This document shows, in pieces, positions 2,238 to 46,930 of a stretch of DNA of 64,000 bases. Location of the stretch: assembly GCA_000002445.1 (NCBI GenBank), contig CH464491.1, positions 5,152,001-5,216,000 on the forward strand, given 5' to 3'. Position numbers and translations under genes: made by a program. A model generated the notes under the pieces. The model worked only from the letters and a program-made list of their open reading frames with translations. It made no database searches and was not told the DNA's origin. How positions within the stretch are numbered: the first letter of the stretch is position 1; each line of letters begins with the position of its first letter. The DNA comes from Trypanosoma brucei (lineage: Eukaryota).

Positions 2238-3925
2238 GGCTTGAATCCTTGTGTCTTCCTTAATCATGTAAGTGAGTAAACAGTTATGCGACTCGCCTTT
2301 GCGTTGCAGCGATTTATCTGGTTGCCTCCCCATGTCAGTTCCAGAAACAAGCTCGTAGACTTCACATCGTTGTCATATGTCTGGATCTTTTGCCTTTAAA
2401 GCAACATTTGATTATGTGGCCGTGGTGTTCTTCCTTTCTATGCTGTGGCGACGTTAAATTCCGCCACTCCATTTATATAAATTTTCAACCAAGGATCGGT
2501 CTCTATATCGCTGTCAGTTTGGTGAGTGCACAAAACAAAATGATAAAACCGCTGCAAACAAGTGAATAGCATGTATTAAAAGAAAAAAACGCAAAATAAA
2601 AAAATTGGCATAAAGATATACATACATATGTAAATTACCACACTAAATGGTATCGTTTTTTTACGTGTTTAACTTGTAAAAAGGTTAGTTCCACCGTAGA
2701 AAGAGGTGAAAATTCTAAAAACGTTTAACGTAAATTTTGTTTTTTGCTAATGTCTTTTGCTAATTTCAACCTATATCATACTGTGTTCATTTATATAGTT
2801 CTTTCATACACGACTAGAATTTTCTTTCTGGCATTCTTTAAAATACCGCAGATTTTGGCATACCTAAGACATTTTATATTTGTGTTTTTAAATGTCTTCT
2901 ACCATCTAGTAGTTTCAATGTATCCTCATGACTCCGAGTGACCAGACACCGCTGTTGCTTAACTTTGAGTCGGACGGTGTTGTGCTTCTTTTTTAGATCT
3001 TTTAGTATGGATATGGTTCACTTTTTCTTAAGACTTGGAATTTTGGAGAAAGAAAGTGCTTTCCTTACTGCTTCCACCTTGTTAATACGATACATTATTT
3101 TTGCATCAATCAAAACTCTTACGTTAATTATTCGTTTCTTGAGAGGTCTTAATGTCTGGCCTTTATACATGTCTTAAATTTGTGGAGTATCAGCATTGAT
3201 TGTCTTTACTTAATATAGATCCTTCATTATTTCATATACGTGTGTTCTTCTTCTTATATCGCCGGTCTTTACTGGATCTTTAGTCAGCTTTTTCTTTTGC
3301 TTCATTTCCTTTCAGTTTCTGACAAAAAAGTAACTCAACTACTTTTGCAAGGTTTACTTTTGTCATTAATGATTTACGTATCCTTCGTTTTGTGTGTAAT
3401 AATGTACATTGCCTTTAATGTGTTTGAAACTTTGCATATTCCATCTTTTTCCATTTGTCTTTTTGCATTTCCTTTCATAACAATATTCCTCGCGCTCTCT
3501 CGCTCATCCACTGCCCCACTCACACTGCACCACTGTCGTTGTCTTAAGCCCTTCTATATTTGTCATCTATTTAGTCTCTACCACTAACCTTACTATAATA
3601 TTAGTAAAGACACACTGACAATACACTCCTATTGTTATCACCTTTATAGTCTCAATTGACATCTATAAAATGAAGAATAATAAACAAAAATTAACTAAAT
3701 TAGAATAGCACTCATTTTCACACCACATTACCTTACTTTGTTACATCTTTGTTCCTAGAGGTCGCTTTCGTATAAAAATTACGTATTCATTTAAAAACAA
3801 TTCATTATTTTTCATATTTCGCAAAGGTTTAAAAAAAGTGATATAATATATTAAATTTCATAAAAATTTAACAAATCCTTTCAACATAGAAGAGTTTCAC
3901 AAAATTCATGAAATTCAAAAAATCA

Positions 3926-4377
3926 TTAAAGTACTATAATTTTATAATTATAGAGTGCAGCCAAACCCGTCAAAGCAGCAGCTATATTCATAGCCGATTT
4001 CTCATTGACAAGAAAAACTGGAAGAGCGGCACTCGGACTTGAGAAGCTTTCCCGTACCATCAACACGGTCAATTCATCAACATACTGCTTTCTGACCCGG
4101 TTTGGCATCCTTTTTTTTTTGCCTCACATGCTTTCTGGGATCGGTGTTTATTTTAATCTACCACAGTGCTTGTCTCTTTCGTTCCTGCTGCTGTATTTTC
4201 TGCTCCTGGTTTGGATTTGCATTCCTCTTTGTTGCCGTCATAATTGCAGTGCTCGCTTGGGCATTCGTCAGCTGTTGTGTTTTTTAGCTTGCATTTATTC
4301 TGTTCTTCTATTGTTGGATTGTTGCTTTTTTTTTTTTGCGGTGGATTTATGCCCGTGGTGATTATGGAGCCCTGCAT
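3926..4377 (-). pseudogene. VSG: VSG C-terminal fragment
   Basis: ORF 4153-4377 encodes a cysteine-rich VSG C-terminal domain (NKCKLKNTTADECPSEHCNYDGNKEECKSKPG). 3926-4108 carries a GPI-signal-like tail (SSPSAALPVFLVNEKSAMNIAAALTG). There is no N-terminal domain. Confidence 0.6.
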
Positions 4378-4619
4378 TAAGGTGCTTTACATCTGCTGCC
4401 GGAGCTGTTGCGGCATGGCAATGTGCACGCATTGGCCTGCTGACACACAAGTTAACTGCTCGCCGCACCCGACTGCTTTGGCCAGGCTGCTATGTCGGCT
4501 GGCTTTAGCCGCCAAACTCCATATTCTGCCCTTTCTAAATATTAAGATTGTTTTGCTAGCGCCCCTTGAAAGGAAAATTGTATACCGGAGCGAAACTGCC
4601 ACAAGCCAGCGTTTAAAAT

Positions 4620-4900
4620 AAATTTGAAGTCGCGCGCAGTGCAAAATGCAGAGATGAAATTCACCAAAGCAGAAAGAGTAACAAACACCACTGCGCGGGT
4701 AGTTTCTGAATATAAAAGGAGCCGCTGCATCACTGAAAAAATTAAAAAAAACAATGTGCTGCAAAAAAAAAAACAGAACAGCCGCTGTATCATTAAGAAA
4801 ATTGCAAAGAGAAGCAATCCAATACGGAAGAGCTGCGTAAAAAAAATGTAACCCTAACCAAGTAACCCTAACCCTAACCCTAACCATTCCTACCTACCCC
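4620..4900 (-). repeat. interstitial telomere-like block: (CCCTAA)4 plus degenerate GCCGCTGCATCACT-type short repeats
   Basis: 4851-4890 reads taaccctaaccaagtaaccctaaccctaaccctaacc. 4700-4800 carries repeated ggagccgctgcatcactgaaaaaa / cagccgctgtatcattaagaaaa units. Homologous blocks occur at 28270-28640 and 44700-45110. Confidence 0.75.
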
Positions 4901-5019
4901 CAACTTCCACAAAAACTCAAAAAAAAACGGGAAAAGAAAAAACAAATTAAGTTATCAGAAAATCAAAAAAATTACAGAATCAGACAGTCAATTTACAAAA
5001 ACAGTTCGATTTTTTCGGT

Positions 5020-5035
5020 TAAATTAAAGGTGTTA
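5020..5035 (-). promoter_or_regulatory. VSG 3'UTR conserved 16-mer (reverse complement gtgttaaaatatgtca)
   Basis: Matches the conserved VSG 3'UTR 16-mer TGATATATTTTAACAC with one mismatch, about 75 nt downstream of the VSG stop, followed by aagttttcaagtagcaa. Confidence 0.7.
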
Positions 5036-5106
5036 AAATATGTCAGAAGTTTTCAAGTAGCAAAAAATTTTAGAAAAATTAAAAAAAAAAATTGAGGGGG
5101 AAAAAT

Positions 5107-6651
5107 TTAAAAAAGCAAGGCCACAAATGCAGCAGAAACAATGCTGAGGGCGAATTTCTTGTTTAGGAGAATAGAGGAATCCTGGCACTTTCCTTCAATC
5201 CAACCGCAAACAGCGTTTTTGCCCTCCTTCTTTTTTCCTGGGGCCTTGGCGCATGTGTCGGGGTCCGTATACTGGCCACAATTAGGGTCTTCTGCCCCTC
5301 CTGCTGCTGCTGCTGTGTTTTCTGTTCCTGCTTTAGGTTTGCACTCGTTTTCCTTTTCGTCATGTTCGCAGCCAAGGCTTTTGCATTCTGTTGCGGTTTT
5401 CTTTGCTGTGTCGCTGCAGTTGCTGTTTGTCGGCTGTTTTTCCTCGGTCTTGTCTGCTTGCTGCTTTTGTTCCGAGGCTGGGCTGTGTCTTTCATCGGTG
5501 ATGGCTGCCGATTTTAGTGCGTAGGCTGTTTTCGCCGCTGCCGCTATGGTCTGCTCCACGGCTGCTAGTTTCGACAGAGCTTGTTCGTGTTCATGTAGCA
5601 GCTTGGCTGCTGTCTGCAGTTGGCTTAGCCATGGGTGAGTTGCTAGAGTTTCCAGTTCCTGCTTTGTTCCTGCTTTGTACATCACGCAGATGCCTTGGTT
5701 CGATTTCCCTGAGCAACCTGTTCCGGTGTAAAAGCCGTAGTAAGTGTCTTTGCCTTTCTGTTGGAATGCGTTGATTAATGCTGTTGCTTTTGCCTGTACT
5801 TCGGCTGCCGTGGCTGGCGTTTTGGGCGATGGTTGTGGGCACTTGCTTAGAAGATCTTTTAGAACTTGCTCCGGTGTGCTGCTCGGGTTGAATGCCGTTG
5901 ACGACTGACTGCTTTCGCAGAGCTTGTTGTTGTCGGTGCCGTCGACTCCGCAAACGCACAGCATAAACTGTGCTATTGTGTTTGCTTTGGCGTCAGTGTT
6001 TGGGGCTCCGCACAGCAATTGTCTGGTCGTTCCGGTGCCTCCCTGGCCTTTGCAGTCGGTGTCTTTCGCACCGGCGGGGGTAAAATCGTCACGGCCGTAG
6101 GCGGCGATCTTCAGCGCTTTGAGTGCATCGTTTGCTTTGTCCTTTTCGGGACCGGTCGCTAGTTGTGTGACGTGTTGCAGCGCTTGAAAAGCGTGTTCCG
6201 CTATCGGGTTTAGCTGCCTTCTGTAGTTTGCTAGCTGTTCTTCCGTTACGTCGGCCAGTCCCGCGGTCTGTAAAATCTGTCGTCTTGTATCGCTGTCTTT
6301 GACCGCGGCTGCTGCTTGTTTCCAGTACTCTTCTCTGGGGTCCGGAGCTGCTGGCTGTGCGGGTGCTGATGCGATCTGTTGTTTGTGCGCCGCTCCCTCG
6401 GTTTTGCTTGCGATTGTGTCGCGCCAACTCTGCGGTGCTACGGAGGCGTTGAGCTTCGCAATGGCCAGATAAGAAACCTGCGCTTGTGCATCTGTGATTT
6501 TTGCCGGAGCTGGTCGCTCTGCTAGGTTGACGAGCTCGCACAGCTGTCGGAAAAGGTGGCCGTGCTCGCCGTCGTCCGGGGCGCTGCTGGCCAGATAAGC
6601 TAGCGTCGCGACAATCGCAGATACTCGGATAAGGTAGCTTGTTTTGATCAT
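5107..6651 (-). CDS. VSG: variant surface glycoprotein, apparently intact (514 aa)
   Basis: Uninterrupted ORF with signal peptide MIKTSYLIRVSAIVATLAYLASSA, a cysteine-containing N-terminal domain and the canonical C-terminus [33 protein letters not shown]. Confidence 0.9.
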   Translation of the reverse strand: MIKTSYLIRVSAIVATLAYLASSAPDDGEHGHLFRQLCELVNLAERPAPAKITDAQAQVSYLAIAKLNASVAPQSWRDTIASKTEGAAHKQQIASAPAQPAAPDPREEYWKQAAAAVKDSDTRRQILQTAGLADVTEEQLANYRRQLNPIAEHAFQALQHVTQLATGPEKDKANDALKALKIAAYGRDDFTPAGAKDTDCKGQGGTGTTRQLLCGAPNTDAKANTIAQFMLCVCGVDGTDNNKLCESSQSSTAFNPSSTPEQVLKDLLSKCPQPSPKTPATAAEVQAKATALINAFQQKGKDTYYGFYTGTGCSGKSNQGICVMYKAGTKQELETLATHPWLSQLQTAAKLLHEHEQALSKLAAVEQTIAAAAKTAYALKSAAITDERHSPASEQKQQADKTEEKQPTNSNCSDTAKKTATECKSLGCEHDEKENECKPKAGTENTAAAAGGAEDPNCGQYTDPDTCAKAPGKKKEGKNAVCGWIEGKCQDSSILLNKKFALSIVSAAFVALLF

Positions 6652-6802: not shown

Positions 6803-7899
6803 TCACGTTTTATTAGCTTTAAACAAATACCCTTCTTTAAACGCGTCCCCACAAATTCTTTCATATCGAAAATGCCAATTCTCTCCGGACACTGCATAAG
6901 TTTCTATTTTCCCCATATCCTTCGAATTAAATTCTCCTCCTTTCAACCTTTTATACCAAGTAAGATTTTTCACAATTAACTTCGCTTTTTCCTCCCATGC
7001 AATAGGCTGTCCGGGAAAATGAATGAATGGGGCTTCTCCAATCACACCACTACTGGGAATAGTAAAAAATATCTCTTTATAATCCAATTCAATCATTCCT
7101 CTCTTCAAAACAAATCTCTGTCCAACAGCTTCCTCCTGTGTAACACTCCATATTAGCAATGGCGTATAGATACTCTGCTCTGACCACCACTCCTCGCTCC
7201 CTTTAAGCAATTCTCCAAAAGCATATTCAAATTTCTTAAATGCCCAAACTCTTGCGATTATATTACCACCTCCAAGGTAAGGTTTTCCGCTAGGAGGTGA
7301 TTTTAGTAAATGGGGTAATTTTTATCATATTCTTTTTGGTAACCAACATTAAAAAACCAAAAACATCTCTGTACATGCTCCTTGTGATCTGAGTTCATGA
7401 GCAAGTTCAACTGAGGAGCATAACACTCCGGAGTTGCTATAAATAAAATAGGGGAAATATGCTTCTCTTTTACTGTATCCTCTTCACTAAACTTCTCTTC
7501 ATTTTCCGCAGTATTTTGCATAAACTATTACACAGCATTCTCAGACTTCTGTTAACTAACAATAACATCAGATCCATCTGCAGTTATTACAATATTCTCA
7601 TCACTTGCATTCTGGTTTTCTAAAAATTCCATAATCAACTGCGGCCTCTTAACATGCTTATACAAACCTCCCATCGCAATTGAAATAATTTCAACATGGC
7701 TTAGTTTAGCACTCAATATGAGGATACACCATCCTTGTGTTGCGTGAGTTTGAACGGCAACCACAAATACTCTATGTTTCTTATTATTATTCTTTGTCAT
7801 ATTTGTTATGTTATTTGTCTCATTACCGTCATGAGATATTGAGTATAAACACACGAAGTGCAGAAAAGCCAGATAAAGCCCACATAAACTATATTTCAT
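6803..7899 (-). pseudogene. ESAG3-like pseudogene, signal-peptide protein family, tentative
   Basis: ORFs 7552-7899 (MKYSLCGLYLAFLHFVCLYSIS, signal peptide), 7303-7521 and 6803-7210 (WWSEQSIYTPLLIWSVTQEE...FIHFPGQPIAWEE...ICGDAFKEGYLFKANKT) are co-linear fragments of one gene of about 365 aa. A paralogous copy lies at 30731-31832. Assignment to ESAG3 rests on size, signal peptide and array context, not on remembered sequence. Confidence 0.4.
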
Positions 7900-8337
7900 T
7901 TGCTGATAAAACTTTAAAATTTAAATGGATTATGAGGAAAATTTAAAAAAAACTTATGAAAGAAGATTTAAGCCCAAGAAGAATTTTAAATTTCAACAAG
8001 ATTTGAACCTCAACTGCAAAACATACCACTCTTAATCTAAATGTAAAATCCAACCATTTAGCGTTGACAGTGGCCTCTACCATTGTAATTAATATAGAGA
8101 TCCCATAAGCCTTGCTTACTGGACTATATCTAAATCTTATTATCACATCCATAGTACCGTTTTTTATCATTATGTTGACTGTTTTTTTGTGTTTGAACTG
8201 GGCATAGTTTATTTCCTCTCTCCCTCTTCTCTGCCTCTCTTTTAAAAATATTTTTGTTCTGCCAAACAGTGCCATACCTACACCGCCACCTTGCTATTCT
8301 ATAAAGCGTGTCTGGTTTGTGTTTTCATATAGTTTTT

Positions 8338-8420
8338 ACTCCTCTTATTATTATATTCGTATATACACACTCACAACACTCTTCTATCATTTTGTCATTA
8401 TCTTTGTTATTATAACCCCA
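8338..8420 (-). repeat. 70-bp repeat, single degenerate unit
   Basis: tattatattcgtatatacacactcacaacac core plus a short TAA run. Confidence 0.8.
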
Positions 8421-9770: not shown

Positions 9771-9996
9771 CCCCTGGCGATGCCGGCCACCTCAACGTGG
9801 TGCCAGGGTCCAGTACCCCGTATCATCGGGGGAAGCCAAGAGCCAGCAGAGTTCCTTTCATGAGGAACACTGCTGTGCTCCGGCTACGGCATCATACAGC
9901 ACAGGGATCAGCAGCGTCTTGCTGGGACACCGTTCTTCATTTGTCGGTCCCTGGGCACGTGGCTAGCGTGCCATCAGCATTGTCACCCGCACTAAG

Positions 9997-10035
9997 ATGC
10001 TGCTGTCCGGTGATGTGGAAGAGAATCCCGGCCCG
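9997..10035 (+). other. 2A-like self-processing peptide MLLSGDVEENPGP at the ingi ORF N-terminus
   Basis: Exact D-x-E-x-NPGP motif, in the same frame as the downstream endonuclease and RT ORFs. An identical motif lies at 50988-51026 in copy 2. Confidence 0.8.
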
Positions 10036-10590
10036 TCGTTGCGCGGGATGCAGTGGAACTGCGCCGGGCTATTTTAAGGAAAGAGATTAGCACTCCACAA
10101 AACCCTTGTTGATGAGCGGATCGCCTTTTGTCTGTTGAGCGAGACAAGGATGACGCCTGGAGAGGCGGCTTGCTTTAGCGTTTCTGGCTACCAACATCAC
10201 GGAATAGCTCGTAACTGCAAAGGAGGTGGTGTATCAATACTAGTGAGGGGGGACCTACCAGTCGAGACCGGTATGGCCGTTGTTGGTCGCATTGAACAAG
10301 TGCATGCAACAATTCACCTTGCACGTGGAACGGCGCTGACTGTCACGTCGGCATACATCCCACCAAAACACACCTTCACGGCAACTGACCTAGATACGCT
10401 TCTGACAACTGACGGTGCCCAGCTCATCGGTGCAGACGCTAACGCACACGCGTTGGCATGGGATCGCGCGAGCCCACCAAATACCAAGGGTGAAACCCTC
10501 ACACAGTGATGCATTGACAATTAGTTTCTGGTCTGCAACACTGGTGAGTGCACCAGGTACGCGCGCCACCACGGGGAGTCCACCCCTGAT

Positions 10591-13500
10591 GTGACACTGT
10601 CAAGGAATTGCACAGTGTACACGTGGACATCGCTGTATTCTCCCGATAGCGATCACCATCACATATTTTTCGACGTTATCGTTGGAGACGACACAGATGC
10701 ACTGAGTTGCCCGCGGCTTCGAAAGCCCATGTACGCATGGCTAAAAGCTGACTGGAGGAATATCCGTCTCAAGGTTGACGAGCTCTGCAGGAAAATTAAT
10801 AGAGAGAAGAACGTCAACACCCTGGAACAGAAATTGAGCTTCGCCATCCGCATTGCGACGAAGGTCTCCGTCCCCCGTGGCTGCAGAGCAACGCCACCAC
10901 ATTGGACACCTGAGCTCGCGAAACTCGATGAAGAGATCGCTGGATGCGGACCCTCCCACCGAAGGGAAAAGTTTATAGCCACGCGTAAGCAGATCCTGGA
11001 CCGTACCACAAAGAAGAGATGGAGCACGCTATGCTCCAGACTTGCGGTGTCAGACCGCTGCAGTTGGCACATTGTCAAGAAGGTATATCCGCCACGACCA
11101 CTAACCACACCGGCTGTACTTGTTGATAACGCGGCCATCACGGACTACCGTCAAGCTGAGAGGTTCATTAAACTGTACTCGTCCCGCGCAAGAAGGTACC
11201 CCGACTCACACACACCGGCACCAATAAAGACGATAGAGAGTGAGTTCAGTCCCATCACGATGGCTGAACTACAGAGATCGATCAAACTGCTACCGAGTGG
11301 ATCCGCAGCCGGACATGATTGCTTATACAACGAGGCACTACAACATCTCGGTAGAACAGCGTTGAATGTTGTGCTGAGGCTATTCAATGAGAGCCTACGA
11401 ACGGGAGTCGTGCCGCCTGCATGGAAGACTGGTGTTATCATCCCCATCCTGAAGGCCGGAAAAAAGGCGGAGGACCTCGATTCTTACAGGCCTGTGACGC
11501 TCACGAGCTGTCTCTGCAAAGTCATGGAGCGCATAATTGCCGCGAGACTTAGAGACACTGTTGAGTCCCAGCTGACGCCGCAGCAATCAGGCTTTCGCCC
11601 CGGTTGCTCAACGCTCGAACAACTCCTGCACGTCCGCGCTGCCCTCCGCCGTCCCACGCACCAATCTCGTACGGGTGCTGTATTTGTCGACTACGAGAAG
11701 GCATTCGATACAGTAGACCACGACAAAATTGCGAGGGAAATGCACAGAATGAAGGTATCACCCCACATTGTGAAGTGGTGCGTATCATTTCTGAGTAACC
11801 GAACTGGCAGAGTGAGATTCAAGGAGAAGCTTTCCAGAAGCAGAACATTTGAGCGAGGAGTGCCACAAGGAACTGTCCTTGGCCCAATCATGTTCATTAT
11901 TGTCATGAACTCGTTGAGCCAACGCCTTGCAGAAGTGCCGTTACTGCAGCACGGATTCTTTGCAGACGACCTGACGCTACTTGCGAGGCACACAGAGAGG
12001 GATGTCATCAACCACACGCTGCAATGCGGCCTAAACGTGGTGTTACAGTGGTCAAAAGAGTACTTCATGTCTGTCAACGTAGCGAAAACAAAGTGCACAC
12101 TCTTCGGGTGTATAGAGCGTCACCCCCTTACATTACAACTGGACGGCGAAAGAATAGGAGCTGACAGGACACCGAAGCTTCTAGGAGTAACATTCCAGTG
12201 TCTGCAGGGGATGGCAACACATGCGGCCGAGACGAGACGCAAGATGGATTTCAGACTACTGCAGATAGCAGCCATCTCAGCTTCTACATGGGGGCCAAGA
12301 CGACAAGTACTGAGAGCTTTTTATCTAGCACTCGTACAGGCACACACCATGTATGGCATTGAGGTATGGTACTGGGACGCTTCGGAACGAAGTCGCGACC
12401 TCCTTGTATCAGCACAACACAAAGCCAGTCACATCATAGCCGGCATACCGCATGGGACGCGCAAAGAGGACTCTCTGCTGGAAGCAAACCTCCTGCCACT
12501 CAAGACGACCACTCTTGTGCGCAGCATGAAATTCATGCTGATGTGTGAGTCACGAGGCGGATGTTTGCGGCGCAGTGCTGAAGAAGTATACCACAGCAAA
12601 CACCCAGTCAGAGCCCTACATTCCCGCATCATGCGGTCCTATCCCCAACTCCGCATTGAGCCACGCGAGCACCCACTAGAGACATCGACGCTCCGCCACA
12701 GCTGCCGACCGATATTTCACACGCAGATAAAGCCTGTGTGCGCTGATGACCCTGACGATGTCAAAAGGGAGGCTTCCGAAAAGTGGATTGAACGGCATTT
12801 TGCACGGAGGGGGAAGGAGCCACCGCGGCGAGAGCACTACGAATTGTGGACTGATGGATCCGTGTCCCTCGGTGAGAAGTCCGGAGCAACTGCCCTGCTC
12901 TACAGAAGCAACACGCTGATTTGCGCACCCAAAACCGGAGCAGGGGAACTCTCATGCAGTTACAGAGCGGAATGCGTAGCATTAGAGATAGGACTGCAAC
13001 GGCTGCTGAAATGGCTTCCGGCATACAGAAGCACAACGAGCAGGTTGTCCATCTTCTCTGACTCGCTGTCAATGTTAACAGCACTGCAGACAGGCCCCCT
13101 AGCCGTAACGGACCCAATTCTAAGACGACTATGGAGGCTTCTGTTTCAAGTTCAGAGAAGGAAGATACGTATCCGACTGCAATTTGTGTTTGGCCATTGT
13201 GGCGTGAAACGGAATGAGGTTTGTGACGAAATGGCCAAAAAGGCCGCAGATTTACCACAGTTGCGAGACACATGGATCCCCAACATCATTGCTTATGCGA
13301 AGCGAGTGCTTAGGTCGGAAGAAGTCTATGAGAACACTCATAGGTTTGGTATCACGGGCAACCACTTTCCAACAAAACCTAAGAAAGAAGAACTGACGAG
13401 GGAGGAAGAAACGGCACTGGCACGCTTTCGGGTTGGGTCCTCAAGACACTATGGCTGGATGTTGCGAAAGATCAACCCGAGTGTGCCTCCACAGTGCCGA

Positions 13501-14757
13501 TGGTGCAACCCGCAACATGCAGAGATAGGGCCAACAATACAAACAGCCCTACCTGTTGCGACACGCACTCTTCAGAGAACCTCCGAACCGACCAAATGTA
13601 CGGAATGTGATGCCACATACCAATGCCGCTCGAGTGCTGTAACGCACATGGTAAACAAACATGGCTTTGTGCGAGCTGATGCCCTCCGGAGAATCAAATA
13701 CGGCGATGCAACACCTGCAGTGGACATCCCCCCGGAGCCCCCTCCAGTGGTGGCGATCGTTCCTCTACCATCGAGCACACGAGTCCTGATAAGACCGCAG
13801 GTGCTTCATTGTACCCTCTGTGCCTCCAAATTCGCAGTGCCAGGCCGACTATTACACCACCTTAGAACAATACATGGCATAGGCAGCGGTAGTTGCCGCG
13901 TGAAAAGGGGTCGAGAGAACGAAGACTCATTGCAAGGAGATGGTAGAGCTCCAGCAGCGCTAGCCTCTCAGGATACACGGAAGCTGCCGTTTCAATGTGA
14001 CCTGTGCGAGCCGAGCTTCGGTACACGTTCTTCCCTGTCACTACACAAGAAATTCAAACATAAGGGCATGGTGACGGAGGACGGTACCGTGGTGTTGGTG
14101 CAATTCCCTCGTAAGCGTGCCCGTGAGGGAAACGTTGACGTCCCGGGGAAAGGCGAGGTGCAGTGTGGTGTGTGCCAAAAAGTGCTCAGTTGCAGGGACT
14201 CCCTCATCCGACACTGTAAGGCTTTCCACAAAGGTGAGGGAGTGGAGCTTAAATGCAGCAAAAGCACAAAATTGTGTGCCACTGATTCCCCGCATACAAA
14301 CGCATCCATCTTGGTGTGCCCGACATGCGGAAGGCAGTGTGCTAGCAAAACTGGCCTCACCCTACATCAAAAGAAGATGCACGGTATGAAGGTAGAGCGC
14401 GCTGTTACCAGCCAACGCGGCGAATGCGAAGAAACGTCGCTGCACTTGATGAGCTGTCCCGGTTTGAAGGAGTTACGTGTCAGGTTTGCGGTAGAATGTG
14501 AGTGTGTGCAGGATGTATGTTTCTCTAAAAGGCTGGCGCAGTTTCTCATTGCGGTTGAACGGAGCCGGCCGCAGGTGAAGTCCTCACCTAAGGTAACAGT
14601 CATACAACCCACTCTCCCTTCTGCAACTTCCCCCCTTATTGCCGAGTGTGGAGCCAGCAGGAAAAGCACCGGACGCAGGAATAGTCCAGACACCCTCAGA
14701 GACAGAGAGGGTATGCAGTCAACAAGCAACAGAAACAGAAAGAGGGAGAGAGAATAA
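10591..14757 (+). CDS. ingi polyprotein remnant (RT, RNase H-like region, five C2H2 zinc fingers), 1388-aa ORF
   Basis: RT motifs (FVDYEKAFDTVDHDKI, FFADDLTLLA), an RNase H-like region (TDGSVSLGEKSGATALL...) and fingers (CTECDATYQCRSSAVTHMVNKHG, FQCDLCEPSFGTRSSLSLHKKFKHKG, VQCGVCQKVLSCRDSLIRHCKAFHKG, CPTCGRQCASKTGLTLHQKKMHG). The upstream AP-endonuclease segment (10135-10509) is cut off by in-frame stops. Confidence 0.85.
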   Translation: MTLSRNCTVYTWTSLYSPDSDHHHIFFDVIVGDDTDALSCPRLRKPMYAWLKADWRNIRLKVDELCRKINREKNVNTLEQKLSFAIRIATKVSVPRGCRATPPHWTPELAKLDEEIAGCGPSHRREKFIATRKQILDRTTKKRWSTLCSRLAVSDRCSWHIVKKVYPPRPLTTPAVLVDNAAITDYRQAERFIKLYSSRARRYPDSHTPAPIKTIESEFSPITMAELQRSIKLLPSGSAAGHDCLYNEALQHLGRTALNVVLRLFNESLRTGVVPPAWKTGVIIPILKAGKKAEDLDSYRPVTLTSCLCKVMERIIAARLRDTVESQLTPQQSGFRPGCSTLEQLLHVRAALRRPTHQSRTGAVFVDYEKAFDTVDHDKIAREMHRMKVSPHIVKWCVSFLSNRTGRVRFKEKLSRSRTFERGVPQGTVLGPIMFIIVMNSLSQRLAEVPLLQHGFFADDLTLLARHTERDVINHTLQCGLNVVLQWSKEYFMSVNVAKTKCTLFGCIERHPLTLQLDGERIGADRTPKLLGVTFQCLQGMATHAAETRRKMDFRLLQIAAISASTWGPRRQVLRAFYLALVQAHTMYGIEVWYWDASERSRDLLVSAQHKASHIIAGIPHGTRKEDSLLEANLLPLKTTTLVRSMKFMLMCESRGGCLRRSAEEVYHSKHPVRALHSRIMRSYPQLRIEPREHPLETSTLRHSCRPIFHTQIKPVCADDPDDVKREASEKWIERHFARRGKEPPRREHYELWTDGSVSLGEKSGATALLYRSNTLICAPKTGAGELSCSYRAECVALEIGLQRLLKWLPAYRSTTSRLSIFSDSLSMLTALQTGPLAVTDPILRRLWRLLFQVQRRKIRIRLQFVFGHCGVKRNEVCDEMAKKAADLPQLRDTWIPNIIAYAKRVLRSEEVYENTHRFGITGNHFPTKPKKEELTREEETALARFRVGSSRHYGWMLRKINPSVPPQCRWCNPQHAEIGPTIQTALPVATRTLQRTSEPTKCTECDATYQCRSSAVTHMVNKHGFVRADALRRIKYGDATPAVDIPPEPPPVVAIVPLPSSTRVLIRPQVLHCTLCASKFAVPGRLLHHLRTIHGIGSGSCRVKRGRENEDSLQGDGRAPAALASQDTRKLPFQCDLCEPSFGTRSSLSLHKKFKHKGMVTEDGTVVLVQFPRKRAREGNVDVPGKGEVQCGVCQKVLSCRDSLIRHCKAFHKGEGVELKCSKSTKLCATDSPHTNASILVCPTCGRQCASKTGLTLHQKKMHGMKVERAVTSQRGECEETSLHLMSCPGLKELRVRFAVECECVQDVCFSKRLAQFLIAVERSRPQVKSSPKVTVIQPTLPSATSPLIAECGASRKSTGRRNSPDTLRDREGMQSTSNRNRKRERE

Positions 14758-21375: not shown

Positions 21376-22803
21376 ATGCTGCCAAAACTAACGCAGCAAA
21401 CACCTGAGGAAAAAACTCTCAAATTACTAAAAAACGACTTTTCAGCTTTTTTGTCAGTTAAAACTTTAGGAAAGCATTTCGGGTCTTTTTTCTTATCAAA
21501 ATCACAGCCTTTTTCATCCTTGCAGGGTTTTTCTGTGGTATGTTTTTTGCATTCGTCTGCTGTTTTGGTTGGGCAAGAGAAACTTTCCTGTTTTTAATTC
21601 TTTTTTTCTTCTTCGACGATGAGGCTTTTGACAGTGTGATAAGTTTGAGCTGCCGCTAGTTCTTTGGGGTCAGTTATTGTTGACAGCTGCTTGTTTCCAT
21701 CTCTTCCAACTGCCGCTTTTGCGGGTTTTAGGTCGTTCAGTTCTTTGATTATTGTATTTTTAACAGCCTCGTTATTATTTCCGAACGCTGATTTAAGGAA
21801 TGCGTCGACTTTTGGTGTTTTTTGCTATCTGAGTATGTTGCGTCGTCACCGTCAATCGCCTTGGCTATTAGTTCCTTTAGTTTCTGCTCAGTGGCTAACG
21901 TTGTAATCGGTGTTTCTGTTGTTGCAGCTTCTAGTGCCGCTTCTGCGTTTTGCATCTTTAATATTTCTGCCAGTTCCATTTTTATTGTTTTCGCTGATGG
22001 GATCGCGGTTTTTAATCCGACTTCGCTGTAGGCCTGGGTGCCGCCTCTGGCTTGCAGCTTCACCTCTACCTGCTGATTTTTGAAGAGCTTGCCGCCTTTA
22101 ATGCCTATCCCGGTTGCTGTTCCCGACGTACAGCGGCTCCTACCAGTTACACTGCCGCTTGTGCTGCCCTTCCCCACAAAGTTAGGTCGTCACAGGCGTT
22201 AGTGCCGGGCGTCGCTTCAACTGCTGTGTATAAGATGACTGTTGGCTGTGCTGGAGCAGGCGTGTCGGCGAGTGTTGTAGCCGCTCTTGCCTCTTCGTTT
22301 TTCATCCACACTCCATGGGGTTGCATGCTGATATGTGGTGTTATCTTGGTGTCTGTGGTGTCCGTTACCGCCGCACTTGCCGTTTTCAAGGCGGCGTCTT
22401 GTATCTTGGCGTTGCCAATTTCTTGCAATGTCTCCTGGCTGCAGGCTAAGTTCCCTGCCGCTATAAGCCCTGACAATATTTTTCTAGCGTCAGCAGCAAC
22501 CGCCTTCATGATCTTTTGTGCCTCACGTTGCTTTGCTTGTGCTAGGATCGCTGCGCCGGCGCCGTAGTAACCAGAACGCGTTGCTGCTATTACCTGTAGT
22601 CGGCTTGCCTCCTGAGTTTGCCTTAGGGCTGTGGTTAGGGCATTGGTTAGCAAGGTTTCCGCAGATTTGGCTATCTTCCTCAGTTGTGCCGTCGCATCGC
22701 ATGGCGTGACTGCCTTCAGCTTCGCCGGTTTCGCCTCGACGAGAGTATGCAGCATTGTTGTTAGCAGTACCGCTAGAAATACTACATTTTGCACCTTTGC
22801 CAT
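21376..22803 (-). pseudogene. VSG: VSG pseudogene (frameshifted)
   Basis: N-terminal ORF 22147-22803 with signal peptide MAKVQNVVFLAVLLTTMLHTLVEA, a middle ORF at 21749-22177, and a C-terminal domain plus GPI signal (ADECKKHTTEKPCKDEKGCDFDKKKDPKCFPK...SFFSNLRVF) in another frame at 21400-21580. Confidence 0.8.
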
Positions 22804-24463: not shown

Positions 24464-25957
24464 CTAGAATTCTACAAGAAAAATCATGACAAATATATGA
24501 ATAACAAAAACTCTCAAATTACTAAAAAACGACTTTTCAGCTTTTTTGTCAGTTAAAACTTTAGGAAAGCATTTCGGGTCTTTTTTCTCATCAAAATCAC
24601 AGCCTTTTTCATCCTTGCAGGGTTTTTCTGTGGTATGTTTTTTGCATTCGTCTGCTGTTTTGGGTGGCTCTGACGCTTTTCCTGCATTGGATTCTGTGGT
24701 ATATGGCTGTTTGTCTGCTTGAGATGTCGACTTCTGGAAGCTGTCGGTAATGTGTTGTACCATTATTCGCGTAGCTAATCCTATGCTGTCAACGTCCTTT
24801 AGCGTCATCTCTTTCTTTTCTCCAAGGACTGTTGCTGGCACTTTCAGCTCCTTAATTTCGTCCCAAATCTTGGTTTTGAAGTTTTCTTGTTTACCAAAAT
24901 TGTTTGTGATAAGGTTGGATACTGTATTTTTTTTCCTCTCCCGTTTCTTTGTCTCGGGGTAAATTGGCGTAGATGCTTCCGACAGCCGCTATGAAGTCGT
25001 CATCGTTTATAAAGCTGTTTAGATCGTCAGGGTTAAACCTGCTCGCTGCTGCTCCTAGTGTTGTAGCTGCTGCTGTGATGTCGATTGCCGCTTGTTTTAA
25101 ATAGTGATCTTGGTTGGTTTCGTTATAGCTTGCCAGTTTCTTTAGGCCGTAGTCGCCTGCTTGACCTGCGTCTAGGGACGTTTGTGTTGCTTGAAATACT
25201 TTACCGCCTGCTATGCAGATATTGTCGTTGCTTGCTACTGCTGCTGCCACCGCTGTGCCGCCTGCCGGAGTGCACGTGTTAGTGGAGTTCTGTTGGCCGG
25301 CTCCTACCGCCGGCGCCCTTGTTGCGCCCCCTGCTGCATCTGCTACCGGCGACGCTACGAAAATCGTGAATTTCTTAAGTTTTGCTGGTGTTGCCCAACT
25401 TCCGAACTCTGCTGCATTCTTGGCGTTTACTGAGCGTTGACAGGTTGCGAGGCCGTTTTTTTGTAGTTTTTGAAGTTTATTGAGCCCGCTACACCGGTGA
25501 TTGATGCTGCAGCGGTCTGCCACGCATCCGCTGTTTTTATCTCTAGTTTTTCTACTGAAGCCGTTGCCAGCTGGTGGCCTGTTATATTTGCAGCGGCTAC
25601 TACGCCGCGAATGGACTGCCGTGCGTGTTTCAGGCTGGTAGCAGTGGCCACCTGCAGTTCCCTCTGTAGAGTGGGTAGCATGGCCCTTGCGGCCTTGGCC
25701 AGGGACGGGTTATAGGGTTGAACAACAGCCGCTGTCGCCTGCTTCGTCCTTTTTAGCAGTAGCTCGTTTTGTGTTAACCGCGTTGTGAGCTTCCCCTCTA
25801 ATTTTGCGATGATGACATTCAGAACTGATGCTGAGGCACAGGCATCTGTTGTTTCGCTGCTGAGTTCGTTGGAAGCTAGGGCTTCTGTCGGTTTCAGCAG
25901 CAAAAGTAATAGTACTGCGGACACTGTTGTAGTTTTAGCCGCTTTCTTGCTTAGCAT
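24464..25957 (-). pseudogene. VSG: VSG pseudogene (frameshifted)
   Basis: Three co-linear minus-strand ORFs. 25427-25957 carries signal peptide MLSKKAAKTTTVSAVLLLLLLKPTEALA. 24891-25523 is the middle. 24464-24841 is the C-terminal domain ending SFFSNLRVFVIHIFVMIFLVEF. The 3' 150 nt are identical to 21418-21567. Confidence 0.8.
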
Positions 25958-28080: not shown

Positions 28081-28269
28081 GTTAAAAACGTACCTCCGGA
28101 AGTCTAGCACCTTTGGATGGTGGGTGCCAAAGACAGAGTGTGTAGCTACTCCTTAGTTGCTTATTTTAATTAGCGGCTATCCCCTAAATATTAGTATATT
28201 TCCTTAATTTCCCCCTTTAAAAAACAAACCGCGTTCAAAACCATAGGACACGCGCCAGCTTTTTAAAAG

Positions 28270-28640
28270 AATTTAAGAGTCGCACAGCGCAAAATGCAGA
28301 GATGAAATTCACAAAAGTGTAAAAGTAAAATTATAACAAATCTGCAGAGAGGTTGAGTCGGCAAACTTAAGCAAAGATGTTTGTCGCGTAAATAAGGGTT
28401 GGGGTCCGCATAACAAAATAGCCGCTGCATGACTATAAGAATAAAAAAGCATCAACCAGGTACAAAAAAAGCATAATAAATCGTATCACCAGCGGCGGGG
28501 CACATAAAAAAAAAGGAGCCGCTGCATCACTAAAAGACTAAAAAAACAAAAAAAGAAAAGGAGAAAAAATTAACCCTAACACACTACCCCTAAGCATAAG
28601 CCGGAAAACCCCCTAACTAACTAACCTACCTACCCACAAA
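28270..28640 (-). repeat. interstitial telomere-like block (degenerate CCCTAA and AGGGTT hexamers plus GCCGCTGCATCACT short repeats)
   Basis: aaccctaacacactacccctaagcataagcc at about 28571. ataagggttggggtcc at about 28393. ggagccgctgcatcactaaaagactaaaaaaa and tagccgctgcatgactataagaataaaaaa units. The flanks are homologous to 4620-4900. Confidence 0.7.
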
Positions 28641-28759
28641 AACTCCAAAAAACGGGAAAAAGGAAAAAAATTTTAGTTGCCAGAAAAACACAAAATATTT
28701 TTACAGAGTCACAATTTTACAAACTTACAAAAACAGTTCAATTTTTTCGGGTAAGTTAC

Positions 28760-28775
28760 GTGTTAAAATATATCA
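28760..28775 (-). promoter_or_regulatory. VSG 3'UTR conserved 16-mer (reverse complement gtgttaaaatatatca)
   Basis: Exact reverse complement of TGATATATTTTAACAC about 60 nt downstream of the VSG stop, followed by aagttttcaaatagcaa. Confidence 0.75.
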
Positions 28776-28834
28776 AAAGTTTTCAAATAGCAAAAATTTT
28801 TAGCAAAAATTTAGCAAGAAAAATAGGGGAAAAT

Positions 28835-44149: not shown

Positions 44150-44222
44150 CTCATTATTGCTCTCATTATAATATTCGTATATACACACTCACAACGCACT
44201 TCTATTATTATTATTATTATAG
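44150..44222 (-). repeat. 70-bp repeat
   Basis: ctcattataatattcgtatatacacactcacaacgcac core plus a TAA run. Confidence 0.85.
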
Positions 44223-44384: not shown

Positions 44385-44700
44385 AAAGCAGCAGCCATCA
44401 GAGCCGATTTGTTATTTAAAAGTAAACTATAATCACTTCAAGCTTTATTATTCCATTTGAAGTTATCGCCCTTTTGTACAGGCATCCGATGTAATGTGGC
44501 TAGTGCAATTTGCAGTTGCAGTTGTTTTATCCCCGTCTTTCTTTTCTCCTGTTTCGTCTCCTGTATTTTTTTGTCTCCTTCTTGTTTGGCTCCTTCTACA
44601 GCTGTTGTTAGTTTTTGCATTTTCTGAACATAGTAATAAGCCATTGTCTTCCCGAAGTTGTTCTTGTTGCAATGCTTACCAGCTCTAAAAAAACGGCGGT
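44385..44700 (-). pseudogene. VSG: VSG C-terminal fragment
   Basis: ORF 44463-44672 encodes a cysteine-rich C-terminal-type segment (CSENAKTNNSCRR...KKDGDKTTATANCTSHITSDACTKG). A GPI-like hydrophobic tail (LNNKSALMAAAFTIFVAF) lies at 44390-44440. There is no N-terminal domain. Confidence 0.5.
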
Positions 44701-45110
44701 GCAGCGCCATAGGCCACGCACCAGGGTCTTAAAAAAAAGTTTGAAGCCTGTCCCTACGAAAAGTGCAGAAGCGAAACTCTCGAAAGCTACAAGAGTATAA
44801 TTGTAACAATGTGGGGATTAAATGAATATGAGAAAAATTTAAGCGAAGATGGCTGCCGTCCAAATAAGGGTTAGGGTTTCACCAAAAAGAGAGCTACTGT
44901 GCCACTGAAAAAAAATTAAATTAAAAAATGGGTCGATGTGAAGATGGAAATTTAAGCTGCAGATGTAAACGTGAACAAAAATGTCTGCTGCGTCAATAAG
45001 GGTTAAGGCCACATCTAAAAAAAAAGGACAAAATCATGACGGGTCACTGGTAGTAGAAAACAAGAAAAAATAAAAATAATAACCCTAACCCTAACCCTAA
45101 ACCTAAGCCT
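44700..45110 (-). repeat. interstitial telomere-like block (CCCTAA x3, TAAGGGTTAGGG, subtelomere-like short repeats)
   Basis: aaccctaaccctaaccctaaacctaagcc at 45081-45109. gtccaaataagggttagggtttcacc at about 44858. gtcaataagggttaaggccac at about 44990. Confidence 0.7.
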
Positions 45111-45215
45111 GGAAAACTTCCCTAACGTACCTCCTTCCTACCTTTTTTGTTTGCTGTACAAAAAAAATTCAAAAAGAAAAAAAAGGATAAAAATTTTCAG
45201 CTATCAGAAAAAAAT

Positions 45216-46930
45216 TTACAGATTTAGACAGCTTAACAAAAATATTACCGGGATATTTTTACGTGTTAAAATATACCAAACAACAAAATTCTTTAAGAAA
45301 GGGAGGGGGAAAAATTTAAAAAGAAAGGCCGCAAATGCAGAAACCATGAGGGCTAATTGCTTTTCTGCTAGAAAACTGGAGGAGCGGCAACCAGGAGTTA
45401 CTGGACCCTGACCATCAATATAGGTAATCCATCCACAAAAGTCTTTCTTTCCTTGGGGGATCGGGCCAGTTTTTTGGCGCAATTCTTAGAATTTTTGTGC
45501 GGCAGAGCACTTATCTTTTCCCCCTGAAGCTCCTTCTCCTTCTCCTGCTGCTGTGTCTTCTGTTCTATCTTTAGGTTTGCATTTGTTCTCTTTTCATCGT
45601 AATTGCATTTGTTTTTAGGGCATAACTTCTGATTTCCATTGTGCTCGGCACAAAGCTCCGCTGCCTGTTGATCTGACTGTGTCTTTGCTCCAGTTGTTTT
45701 GGGGAAAACAGCTTTGTTGGTTTTCATAGCGTTTATGTTTTCTATTGCCTCCGCTATTGCATATTGTAGTTGATCGTCGTTAATTTGAAACAGTTTTTTG
45801 GTTTGTTTTGTGTTGCCCTGCGTCGGTACCTCCGCGTTTATGGCTTTGATCGCCATTATGTAACCGCCTTCTTCGTTATCTGCGTTGACTTCGAAAAAAC
45901 TTTTAACTAGTTCGTCTGCGTTGTTTGCCTCAGCTGCCGCTTGCCACGCCTGCGCCTTCTGTGCAGCTGTTGCCAGTGCTGCCCGAGTTGTTCTGTCTTT
46001 TAGTAGGCCCTTTACTGCCGTTTCGTCCGTTGGTGTTTTTGTTACTGCTTGCCGCAGCTTGTTTGCTACTGCAGCGCGCTTTTCGCTGAGCGCCTTGAGA
46101 AGGTTATTTGTGACTGCGGCCGTGTGTATCGATGGCATGTTCTGGAAGTCTCCAGCAGCTGCTACCTGTATTAGTCCGTTTAGTGGGTGTATTGGCTGCG
46201 TTACACTGCTGTATGCTGTGTTTGGGTTTTCCGATATTCGGCATTTTGGTGCAGCTGCTCCGGTTGTTTCAGGGATTCCTGTGTCTTGAAGGGTTGTTTT
46301 GATTTCGGTTGCCAGATCTGTGATAACTGCTGTTAGTGTTGTCGTGTCTGCCGTGCCGCACTTTGTGTCAACGATTTTAGCTGCAGCGTTGCCGTCGTTG
46401 TCACCGCCAATGCACCCATTTTGTGCTGTTGGTGTCGTTTGTTGGTGGTTTTGCAGTAAGTGCATCAGTTCATCGACACGGCCTGAAGCGTACATTGCTT
46501 GTCCTACTATTTTGGTGTTCTCGCCTTCCCAGTTGACGAGGTTGCTGGTCGCTTCGTCTAGGTTTGTCGCCGCATACAGCTTGAACGTTTCTGCTGCAAG
46601 CTTCAGCGCCGGCATTTTTAGTGCTGCTAGCGAATGCTGAAGGTACGCGTGCTTGGCGGTGATCACTGCATCTTTGCCATGCTTGATCGAGTCTGCTAGG
46701 GACGCGGCTAAGGCCTTGGCTTTGGACGAAAAGGCACATAACTTTGTCCCAACACTGGCTTTGATTGGGCGTTTGTCGGTCGCGCCTTCGATACCGGTCG
46801 GCAGCGCAAGGACTAGAGCCACTAGTCTCGCCTGTTTGCTGCTCCGCTGTCGCCAGTTGTTAATGCTTTTTCGCTCCACGTCGTCTTTTCCGGCATGTTG
46901 GGCTAGTTCAGTGCCTGTGACTGCAAACAT
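45216..46930 (-). pseudogene. VSG: VSG pseudogene (C-terminal frameshift; aberrant N-terminus)
   Basis: The 510-aa ORF 45398-46930 holds the signal peptide core ARLVALVLALPTGIEGA but lacks a proper initiator just upstream, and ends ...LPILMVRVQ*. The GPI signal SSSFLAEKQLALMVSAFAAFLF is read in another frame at 45216-45482. Confidence 0.75.
45264..45279 (-). promoter_or_regulatory. VSG 3'UTR 16-mer-like element (reverse complement gtgttaaaatatacca)
   Basis: 15 of 16 positions match the reverse complement of TGATATATTTTAACAC, downstream of the VSG C-terminus. Confidence 0.55.

What the first reader, a model, noticed from the sequence alone, without database searches (positions are those of the whole stretch)
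3926..5106. Fossil telomere junction downstream of an intact VSG: VSG, 3'UTR, (TTAGGG)4, subtelomere-like short repeats, then an orphan VSG C-terminal fragment
In the sense of VSG 5107-6651 (minus strand), about 217 nt after the stop codon come four telomeric hexamers, at 4851-4890. Their G-strand runs 5' to 3' away from the gene, the same polarity as a telomeric VSG. Next come repeated GCCGCTGCATCACT(G/A)AAAA units reminiscent of telomere-adjacent short repeats. Then comes a separate VSG C-terminal domain plus GPI-signal remnant at 3926-4377, with no N-terminal domain. The order looks like a former chromosome-end or expression-site-like VSG locus. It may have been internalised, or healed and then fused, and later overwritten at the 5' side by gene conversion whose 3' boundary lay inside the C-terminal coding region.
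Basis: partly seen in the sequence, partly recalled or inferred. Interest (0 to 1): 0.7.

Follow-up and report, generated by a model that had tools for sequence, protein, structure and literature searches.

The report
Telomere-like relic in VSG flank
Just downstream of an intact trypanosome surface-antigen (VSG) gene sits a short, decaying run of telomere repeats; it is real, but it is one copy of an old, multi-copy "telomeric-type" gene flank carried inside the gene array, not the scar of a chromosome end that once stood at this spot.

Summary
The window is a Trypanosoma brucei subtelomeric VSG array. VSG 5107-6651 is 100% identical to a TREU927 reference VSG. On the VSG sense strand, 3+1 perfect TTAGGG units (4883-4866 and 4857-4852) start about 220 nt after the stop codon, preceded by degenerate telomere-like units. 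A frameshifted VSG C-terminal remnant lies at 3926-4377.

The structure is not specific to this locus. Two other VSGs in the window (28835-30265 and 45398-46930) carry the same collinear 0.5-0.7 kb flank, with the hexamer block in register. All three are followed by a degenerate VSG 3' remnant, an ordinary array-type flank and a 70-bp repeat. A T. b. gambiense locus carries the distal half plus a remnant. Copies are 57-69% identical and the VSG coding regions are unrelated.

Published work reports TTAGGG-like repeats 3' of telomere-proximal VSGs, and VSG-to-telomere distances from 200 nt. My reading is that an ancient telomeric-type VSG 3' flank was fused once to a truncated VSG and then spread by cassette duplication, while the coding regions were swapped by gene conversion. 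The "subtelomere-like short repeats" are only two copies of a 15-mer. Interest is moderate to low: a new member of a known kind.

The parts
5107..6651 (-). Intact B-type VSG gene with a type-2-like C-terminal domain and GPI signal. Identical to TREU927 VSG EAN80680.1.
4913..5106 (-). Proximal flank: the VSG 3'UTR, including the conserved 16-mer at 5030-5045, plus a T-rich tract. It is 81-87% identical over aligned columns to the same segment after VSG 28835 and VSG 45398. The other VSG flanks in the window share only the 16-mer region.
4849..4912 (-). Telomere-like block. The proximal part is degenerate (GTGGAAGTTGGGGGTAGGTAGGAATGG). It is followed by TTAGGG x3 (4883-4866), an 8-nt variant unit TTACTTGG, one more TTAGGG (4857-4852) and TTA. 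The G-strand runs 5'->3' away from the VSG.
4598..4848 (-). Distal module of non-telomeric, T-rich DNA shared with the paralogous flanks. It holds two AGTGATGCAGCGGCT units (4720-4734 and 4780-4794) and a 24-nt island at 4641-4664 that is identical to 28289-28312. The inverted CCCTAACCCTTATTT element seen in the other copies is deleted here.
4378..4597 (-). GC-richer link region (about 52% GC). It aligns with the equivalent stretch of the 28835 copy and of the T. b. gambiense copy. It is probably degenerate VSG coding sequence upstream of the C-terminal domain; this is inferred and no significant protein match was found.
3926..4377 (-). Orphan VSG C-terminal-domain pseudogene remnant. It covers the whole Pfam Trypan_glycop_C profile but has an in-frame stop, frameshifts and a degenerate GPI signal.
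3576..3925 (-). The remnant's own ordinary array-type 3' flank (3662-3925), homologous to the flanks after other array VSGs. It leads into the 70-bp repeat of the next cassette (3576-3661).
   Evidence: (families D3, D17, D19, D20)
6809..7899 (-). Full-length ESAG3 pseudogene lying between the cassette's 70-bp repeat (8331-8416) and the VSG. A paralogous copy sits at 30734-31832, upstream of VSG 28835.
28222..28834 (-). Paralogous copy 2 of the flank, after an unrelated A-type VSG (28835-30265). Its hexamer block is degenerate (TTATGC TTAGGG GTAGTGTG TTAGGG TTA). It is followed by the link region and a type-1-like GPI-signal remnant near 27930-28030.
44687..45317 (-). Paralogous copy 3 of the flank, after the frameshifted A-type VSG pseudogene 45398-46930. 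TRF finds 5.2 hexamer copies at 45080-45110. An inverted telomeric 12-mer lies at 44867-44878. The flank is followed by a C-terminal-domain remnant at about 44360-44640 and a 70-bp repeat at 44149-44234.

Best explanation
The region is one copy of an old, multi-copy composite 3' flank of T. brucei VSG cassettes. In order, the composite is:
- VSG 3'UTR and T-rich tract
- about 65 nt of telomere-like repeats, degenerate proximally and near-perfect distally
- a 250-400 nt non-telomeric distal module
- a 5'-truncated, decaying VSG 3' part with its own ordinary array-type flank
- the next 70-bp repeat

The first two parts have the architecture described for telomere-proximal VSGs. The most likely history (inferred) is as follows. 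A telomeric VSG had a repeat tract starting about 200 nt after its stop codon. That tract was cut down to a few repeats and joined, once and long ago, to other subtelomeric DNA ending in a truncated array VSG. The composite then spread through the arrays by cassette duplication. The VSG coding regions upstream were repeatedly replaced by gene conversion, with boundaries in the upstream flank (70-bp repeat or ESAG3 pseudogene) and in the C-terminal coding region or 3'UTR.

Today the hexamers are most likely a neutrally decaying interstitial telomeric relic with no required function.
For: Shown:
- The hexamer block is non-random and correctly oriented.
- Three flanks in the window are collinear homologues with the block in register (alignment A1; blastn). 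Other VSG flanks share only the 16-mer region.
- Both junctions of the block, and the junction from distal module to link and remnant, are shared. The T. b. gambiense copy L004 1704-2420 shares the distal ones.
- Copies 5107 and 28835 share an 8-nt variant unit at the same repeat position (TTACTTGG versus GTAGTGTG). This indicates common descent of the block rather than independent capture.
- Identity within the block (77-85%) is no higher than in the proximal flank (81-87%). One copy is badly degenerate. Both fit neutral decay.
- Cassettes 5107 and 28835 also share 1.27 kb of upstream flank, an ESAG3 pseudogene, at 76% identity. Their VSG proteins are unrelated, so the coding regions were swapped between conserved flanks.
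- Proteins in nr from T. brucei are about 99% identical to this VSG up to roughly residue 428 and then carry a different C-terminal tail. A recombination boundary inside the C-terminal coding region would give this pattern.

From the literature:
- The VSG-to-telomere-repeat distance in 17 expression-site clones is 200-1590 nt (PMC2567434). Here the block starts 190-225 nt after the stop.
Against: - No genuine T. brucei chromosome-end sequence could be reached with these tools. Homology of this flank to real telomeric VSG flanks rests on architecture, distance and polarity plus a literature statement, not on an alignment.
- I could not determine whether the distal module and remnant also occur at true telomeres. 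If they do, the composite would be a standard telomeric flank and could have entered arrays several times.
- The longest exact string shared by the 5107 and 45398 flanks is the 21-nt hexamer run, although the flanks are only about 57% identical. This could mean homogenisation, re-copying from telomeres, or constraint.
- The C-terminal remnants differ in type and length among copies. A single ancestral fusion then requires later overwriting or deletion.
Confidence: 0.6

Rival explanations
1. Locus-specific fossil. A chromosome end or expression-site-like telomere once stood at 4850-4890. It was internalised, or healed and then fused, at this site. The incoming DNA overwrote the 5' part of a resident VSG and left the orphan C-terminal fragment.
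For: The order and polarity of the elements are correct. An ESAG3 pseudogene sits directly upstream of the VSG, an expression-site-associated gene in the same orientation. The hexamer distance equals the shortest VSG-to-telomere distance reported for expression sites.
Against: The same composite, with the same junctions, follows two other unrelated VSGs 24 and 40 kb away and occurs in T. b. gambiense, at 57-76% identity. The event therefore predates this locus. ESAG3 pseudogenes upstream of array VSGs also occur with ordinary array-type flanks (L004), so the pseudogene is weak evidence.
Confidence: 0.07
2. The site was never a chromosome end. In an ancestral VSG 3' flank, a double-strand break was repaired with telomerase adding a few TTAGGG units. 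This is how short interstitial telomeric sequences are thought to arise in vertebrates (from my own knowledge, not checked here). The modified flank was then duplicated.
For: The block is short (5-6 units) and is flanked on both sides by non-telomeric T-rich DNA conserved among copies. No long tract and no 29-bp subtelomeric array is present.
Against: The block has a degenerate proximal part (GGTAGGTAGG..TTAGTTAGTTAGGG) grading into near-perfect distal units, like a natural subtelomere-to-telomere transition. Its position and polarity match those of telomeric VSGs. No 'empty' homologous flank was found in the window.
Confidence: 0.12
3. The block and its flank are kept because they are useful. 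Three roles are conceivable:
- an internal binding site for the telomere proteins TRF and RAP1, helping silence array VSGs
- downstream homology with expression-site telomeric flanks during duplicative activation
- a seed for new telomere addition after subtelomere breakage
For: Three perfect tandem hexamers survive in two of three copies although the flanks are about 57% identical, and they form the longest shared exact string. [quoted passage not shown]
Against: One copy is degenerate. Block identity is no higher than that of the neighbouring flank. The same RAP1 study reports only sparse binding in subtelomeric arrays. The nr relatives of this very VSG differ from it from about residue 428 onward. 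That places a recombination boundary upstream of the block, so the block was not needed as downstream homology (the link to Hall 2013 Set_08 is my inference).
Confidence: 0.12
4. A chance hexamer run in AT-rich, low-complexity DNA.
For: The surrounding DNA is T-rich and of low complexity.
Against: There are 6 hits against 0.18 expected, and no shuffle reaches 6. All clusters sit at the same distance after VSG stop codons and in register within a conserved flank.
Confidence: 0.01

Closest known systems
[quoted passage not shown] 2013, PMC3708902). Also the VSG-to-telomere spacing of bloodstream expression sites (Hertz-Fowler et al. 2008, PMC2567434).
   Same: It lies immediately 3' of a VSG with the canonical 3'UTR 16-mer. 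The G-strand polarity points away from the gene. The block begins about 190-225 nt after the stop, equal to the shortest distance reported for expression sites (200 nt).
   Different: The block is only about 65 nt long. It is followed by non-telomeric DNA and further VSG cassettes, so it is chromosome-internal. Sequence-level homology to genuine telomeric flanks could not be tested here.
Short interstitial telomeric sequences (ITS) of other eukaryotes (review PMC6410037, listed but not read).
   Same: A few telomere repeats at an internal site, decaying by point mutation and flanked by non-telomeric DNA. They are interpreted as relics of rearrangement or repair.
   Different: It is part of a duplicated gene-cassette flank in a recombining antigen-gene array. 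It sits at a fixed distance from a gene, and several diverged paralogous copies exist.
Head-to-head telomere fusion relics, such as the one at human 2q13 (from my own knowledge).
   Same: Copy 45398 has a G-strand run and an inverted C-strand 12-mer.
   Different: The arms are 202-214 nt apart and do not abut. The inverted arm is only two units long. It is absent from the copy in the finding.
VSG gene fragments encoding only C-terminal domains in T. brucei arrays. I recall this from Berriman et al. 2005 and Marcello & Barry 2007, which were not available in the library.
   Same: 3926-4377 is a C-terminal-domain-only, frameshifted remnant with its own 3' flank and a downstream 70-bp repeat.
   Different: Here the remnant is consistently coupled to the telomeric-type flank of the preceding VSG. 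I have not seen this described, and could not check.
Conserved non-coding elements CNE3 and CNE4 between telomeric VSGs and the telomere in T. congolense (PMC6152948).
   Same: Conserved non-coding sequence in a fixed orientation downstream of telomere-proximal VSGs.
   Different: A different species with no sequence relationship tested. Those elements are reported at true telomeres, not inside arrays.

Membership tests
Telomere-proximal VSG 3' flank | Lies directly 3' of a VSG gene that has the conserved 3'UTR 16-mer | tested here: met
   16-mer at 5030-5045 (1 mismatch), 62-77 nt after the stop of VSG 5107-6651
Telomere-proximal VSG 3' flank | TTAGGG or TTAGGG-like repeats with the G-strand 5'->3' pointing away from the VSG | tested here: met
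Telomere-proximal VSG 3' flank | Repeats begin 200-1590 nt after the VSG (range in expression-site clones, PMC2567434) | tested here: met
   About 190-225 nt in the three copies (for the published range)
Telomere-proximal VSG 3' flank | Repeats continue into a long terminal (TTAGGG)n tract at a chromosome end | tested here: not met
   The block ends after about 37 nt. It is followed by non-telomeric DNA, a VSG remnant, a 70-bp repeat and more cassettes
Telomere-proximal VSG 3' flank | Sequence homology to flanks of bona fide telomeric VSGs (expression-site, metacyclic or minichromosomal) | not testable with these tools
   No T. brucei telomeric DNA was reachable. Window proteins and TREU927 proteins are not in the gene index. 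Metagenome scans gave 0 hits
Short interstitial telomeric sequence (ITS) | A short run of canonical telomere repeats at an internal position, flanked by non-telomeric sequence | tested here: met
Short interstitial telomeric sequence (ITS) | Origin by telomerase-mediated repair: an 'empty' homologous site exists | tested here: inconclusive
   No homologous flank lacking the block exists in the window or the fetched loci. The sample is far too small to decide
Head-to-head telomere fusion | (TTAGGG)n directly abutting (CCCTAA)n | tested here: not met
   Inverted 12-mers occur only in copy 45398, 202-214 nt apart. No inverted repeat was found in 4380-5110
29-bp (telomere-derived) subtelomeric repeat array | Tandem array of about 29-bp units next to the telomere repeats | tested here: not met
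   TRF finds no such period in any of the three flanks. The GCCGCTGCATCACT unit occurs only twice, 60 nt apart. I did not have the 29-bp consensus, so sequence identity to it was not tested
VSG C-terminal-domain gene fragment | Matches the VSG C-terminal domain profile with no N-terminal domain | tested here: met
   Stitched translation scores 22.4 bits against a cut-off of 21.4, over profile positions 1-103 of 104. There is no significant N-terminal-domain match upstream. Caveat: frames were stitched by hand
Bloodstream VSG expression site | Promoter, ESAG7/6 through ESAG1, a long 70-bp repeat tract, VSG and terminal telomere | tested here: not met
   Only an ESAG3 pseudogene is present, and it lies between a single 70-bp repeat and the VSG. 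There is no terminal tract

The most novel reading that the evidence does not exclude
Array VSG cassettes that carry this telomeric-type flank form a distinct class that keeps exchanging with chromosome ends. Under this reading, the TTAGGG-like block and conserved flank give downstream homology with expression-site or minichromosome telomeric flanks. Alternatively they give a ready seed for new telomere addition after a subtelomeric break. Either way the whole intact VSG plus its own 3'UTR could become telomeric or be copied without needing homology in the C-terminal domain. This would influence which archive VSGs are activated early. The composite (block, distal module, C-terminal remnant) might also be the standard content of the 'long' (about 1.3-1.6 kb) VSG-to-telomere intervals seen in expression sites.
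Probability: 0.12. Interest if true: 0.6.

Novelty: new member of a known kind. Interest (0 to 1): 0.33.

Why it matters
How silent VSGs move between internal arrays and telomeres is central to trypanosome antigenic variation. So is the question of which flanking homologies set the order in which they are activated. A recognisable telomeric-type 3' flank on about a quarter of the array VSGs in this window (3 of about 13) gives a simple sequence marker for cassettes of telomeric ancestry. It also gives a concrete set of internal TTAGGG sites to check in existing TRF and RAP1 ChIP-seq, base J and VSG-seq data. If the flank is only a neutral relic, which I think most likely, it documents array evolution: flanks persist while coding regions are swapped. 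That would not change current models.

Tried and rejected
- The spurious ORF across the module (4387-4887) was used as a protein query to find other copies through 'hypothetical protein' gene calls. It gave no hits.
- Exact-protein look-ups of three window VSGs, and of TREU927 proteins, failed. TREU927 is not in the gene-position index, although the protein cluster table lists its contig.
- T. equiperdum contigs L001-L003 and T. b. gambiense loci L005-L006 contain no module and no hexamer runs.
- A C-terminal-domain profile search returned only 4 short proteins without contigs.
- Two metagenome scans, for the 16-mer plus hexamers and for the extended 3'UTR motif, found nothing.
- An Rfam scan of the whole window found nothing.
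- The head-to-head fusion and 29-bp repeat array readings were rejected.
- An N-terminal-domain tail in 4378-4597 was tested. Only weak, non-significant matches were found.
- The ESAG3 pseudogene was considered as evidence of expression-site origin and then downgraded. A T. b. gambiense pair of ESAG3 pseudogene and VSG pseudogene has an ordinary array-type flank.
- Literature searches found no description of hexamers after array VSGs. Marcello & Barry 2007, Cross et al. 2014 and Wickstead et al. 2004 are not held. Prior description therefore cannot be excluded.

Full report
**What the window is.** All large minus-strand ORFs are VSGs, with Pfam hits to VSG_B, Trypan_glycop and Trypan_glycop_C. 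Each is preceded by 70-bp repeats (families D1-D3). Two ingi retroelements lie on the plus strand. The VSG in the finding (5107-6651) is 100% identical over 514 aa to TREU927 VSG EAN80680.1/XP_829792.1. The window is therefore, or equals, a subtelomeric VSG array of the T. brucei reference strain.

**Checking the observation.**
- Hexamers. Read on the VSG sense strand, the stop is followed by the 3'UTR with the conserved 16-mer (5030-5045) and a T-rich tract. Then comes GTGGAAGTTGGGGGTAGGTAGGAATGG TTAGGG TTAGGG TTAGGG TTACTTGG TTAGGG TTA. The perfect units are 4883-4866 and 4857-4852. TRF.8 units at 81%.
- Chance. The 12-mer TTAGGGTTAGGG with <=1 mismatch occurs 6 times against 0.18 expected, and no shuffle reaches 6. 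Clusters of this hexamer occur at only three places in 64 kb, each 190-225 nt after a VSG's GPI-signal-frame stop.
- Short repeats. The 'GCCGCTGCATCACT' repeats are two copies 60 nt apart, not an array. No 29-bp-type tandem array exists.
- Orphan fragment. The fragment at 3926-4377 is real. A hand-stitched translation covers the whole Trypan_glycop_C profile just above the Pfam cut-off. tblastn homology to a VSG starts near 4362. It carries a stop, frameshifts and a decayed GPI signal.
Only the 'short repeats' are overstated.

**The key result: the structure is a repeat family.**
- The 3' flanks of VSG 28835-30265 and of the VSG pseudogene 45398-46930 are collinear homologues of 5106-4598. The telomere-like block is in register in all three (alignment A1; blastn).
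- MAFFT-wide identities are 57-69%. Over aligned columns, identity is 81-87% in the proximal part, 77-85% in the block and about 70% in the distal module.
- The consensus block is GGTAGGTAGG-TTAGTTAGTTAGGG-GGTTTTCCGGC-(TTAGGG)~5-TTA. It is degenerate near the gene and nearly perfect distally, and it ends abruptly in T-rich DNA at the same point in all copies.
- Copies 5107 and 28835 share an 8-nt variant unit at the same repeat position. The block was therefore inherited, not captured independently.
- All other VSG flanks in the window share only the 16-mer region with this flank. They reach the next 70-bp repeat within about 250-450 nt. So there are two flank classes, 'array-type' and 'telomeric-type', and the latter follows 3 of about 13 VSG genes or pseudogenes.

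**What follows the module.**
- In each copy the distal module runs into a GC-richer link and a degenerate VSG 3' remnant. The remnant has its own array-type flank and then a 70-bp repeat.
- A T. b. gambiense DAL972 locus (FN554968.1; L004 1704-2420) carries the distal module, link and C-terminal remnant in the same order. It is 76% identical to copy 28835 and lies directly after an assembly gap.
- The junction from distal module to degenerate VSG part is thus shared across copies and subspecies.
- The remnants themselves differ. Copy 5107 has a two-subdomain type-2-like remnant, copy 45398 a short type-2-like one, and copy 28835 only a type-1-like GPI signal. I attribute this to later 3' gene conversion or deletion (inference).

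**Flanks persist while coding regions are swapped.**
- Cassettes 5107 and 28835 also share 1.27 kb upstream at 76% identity.
- That upstream region is a full-length ESAG3 pseudogene (7899-6809 and 31832-30734). It was identified through the 1.84-billion-protein representative search and the cluster names.
- The two VSG proteins are unrelated.
- Proteins in nr are about 99% identical to this VSG up to residue 428 and then switch to another C-terminal tail. This matches the '3' donation' pattern of Hall et al. 2013. Their Table S1 lists an intact B-type, CTD-2 array donor with 3' donation (Set_08), but I could not verify that it is this gene.

**Comparison with what is known.**
- Hall et al. [quoted passage not shown] They used these repeats to flag minichromosomal donors.
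- Hertz-Fowler et al. [quoted passage not shown]
- The position (190-225 nt), polarity and proximal-degenerate-to-distal-perfect gradient of the block fit a telomeric VSG flank whose tract was truncated. It fails the defining feature of a real telomeric flank, continuity with a terminal tract. Sequence homology to genuine chromosome ends could not be tested.
- It is not a head-to-head fusion. Inverted 12-mers occur only in copy 45398, 202-214 nt apart.
- It is not an expression site.

**Most likely explanation (confidence about 0.6).** An ancient telomeric-type VSG 3' flank was fused once to other subtelomeric DNA ending in a truncated VSG. The composite was then propagated by cassette duplication, and it now decays neutrally.

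**Rivals.**
- Locus-specific healing or fusion is largely refuted by the paralogues.
- Telomerase-mediated insertion of an ITS into an ancestral flank is not excluded.
- A maintained function (TRF or RAP1 binding, downstream homology, or telomere seeding) is hinted at in two ways. The 21-nt perfect run is the longest exact match between two flanks that are otherwise about 57% identical. RAP1 binds telomeric and G/T-rich DNA downstream of VSGs in expression sites (PMC10686619). Three points count against it: one copy is degenerate, the block is no better conserved than its surroundings, and RAP1 binding in arrays is sparse.

**Limits.**
- No T. brucei telomeric or genome-wide DNA could be searched.
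- The key older papers are not in the library.
- Both the telomeric homology and the novelty claim therefore remain provisional.

**Verdict.** This is a real, non-random feature. It is a new member of a known kind, of moderate to low interest.

Noticed in passing
window 6809-7899 and 30734-31832 (minus strand): Full-length ESAG3 pseudogenes lie between the 70-bp repeat and the VSG in two of the three cassettes that carry the telomeric-type flank. The 5107 copy is mosaic. Residues 197-367 are 88% identical to expression-site ESAG3, but residues 1-202 are only 67% identical. This suggests a gene-conversion patch running into the VSG.
   Followed up: partly
L004 (T. b. gambiense DAL972 FN554968.1) 1704-2420, next to the N-gap at 1604-1703: The distal half of the module, the link and a C-terminal remnant are present, 76% identical to window copy 28835. 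They lie directly after a 100-N assembly gap and beside an ISG65 gene on the opposite strand. The gap may hide the VSG and the hexamer block.
   Followed up: partly
window 44867-44878 versus 45081-45104: Perfectly complementary inverted telomeric 12-mers (AGGGTTAGGGTT / AACCCTAACCCT) lie 202-214 nt apart within flank copy 45398. A weaker CCCCAACCCTTATTT element sits at the same place in copy 28835. The element is deleted in the copy of the finding.
   Followed up: partly
window 5107-6651 compared with proteins P0001, P0070, P0072 and P0073 (AGQ50265 etc.): Proteins in nr match this array VSG at about 99% up to residue 428 and then carry a different type-2 C-terminal tail. This is the signature of 3' donation. 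They possibly correspond to Set_08 (Tb09.v4.0077) of Hall et al. 2013, which I did not verify.
   Followed up: partly
window 45317-46930: The VSG upstream of flank copy 3 is frameshifted in its C-terminal domain. The long ORF ends at 45398 in the wrong frame, while the GPI-signal frame stops near 45317.
   Followed up: partly
window 9772-14757 and 50764-55591 (plus strand): Two ingi-type retroelements (RVT_1, RNase H and zinc-finger ORF) are 96-98% identical and sit about 41 kb apart, opposite in orientation to the VSGs. The second copy has its ORF split.
   Followed up: no
window 21411-21572 and 24506-24667: A 162-nt direct repeat at 99% identity, 3.1 kb apart, next to short VSG-like fragments. 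It is much younger than the other duplications in the window.
   Followed up: no
window 47649-47943: An unusually long, almost pure (TAA/ATT)n expansion lies within the 70-bp repeat tract upstream of VSG 45398.
   Followed up: no
window 4641-4664 and 28289-28312: A 24-nt island (GTGAATTTCATCTCTGCATTTTGC on the VSG strand) is perfectly conserved between two module copies whose surroundings are about 70% identical. The reason is unknown.
   Followed up: no
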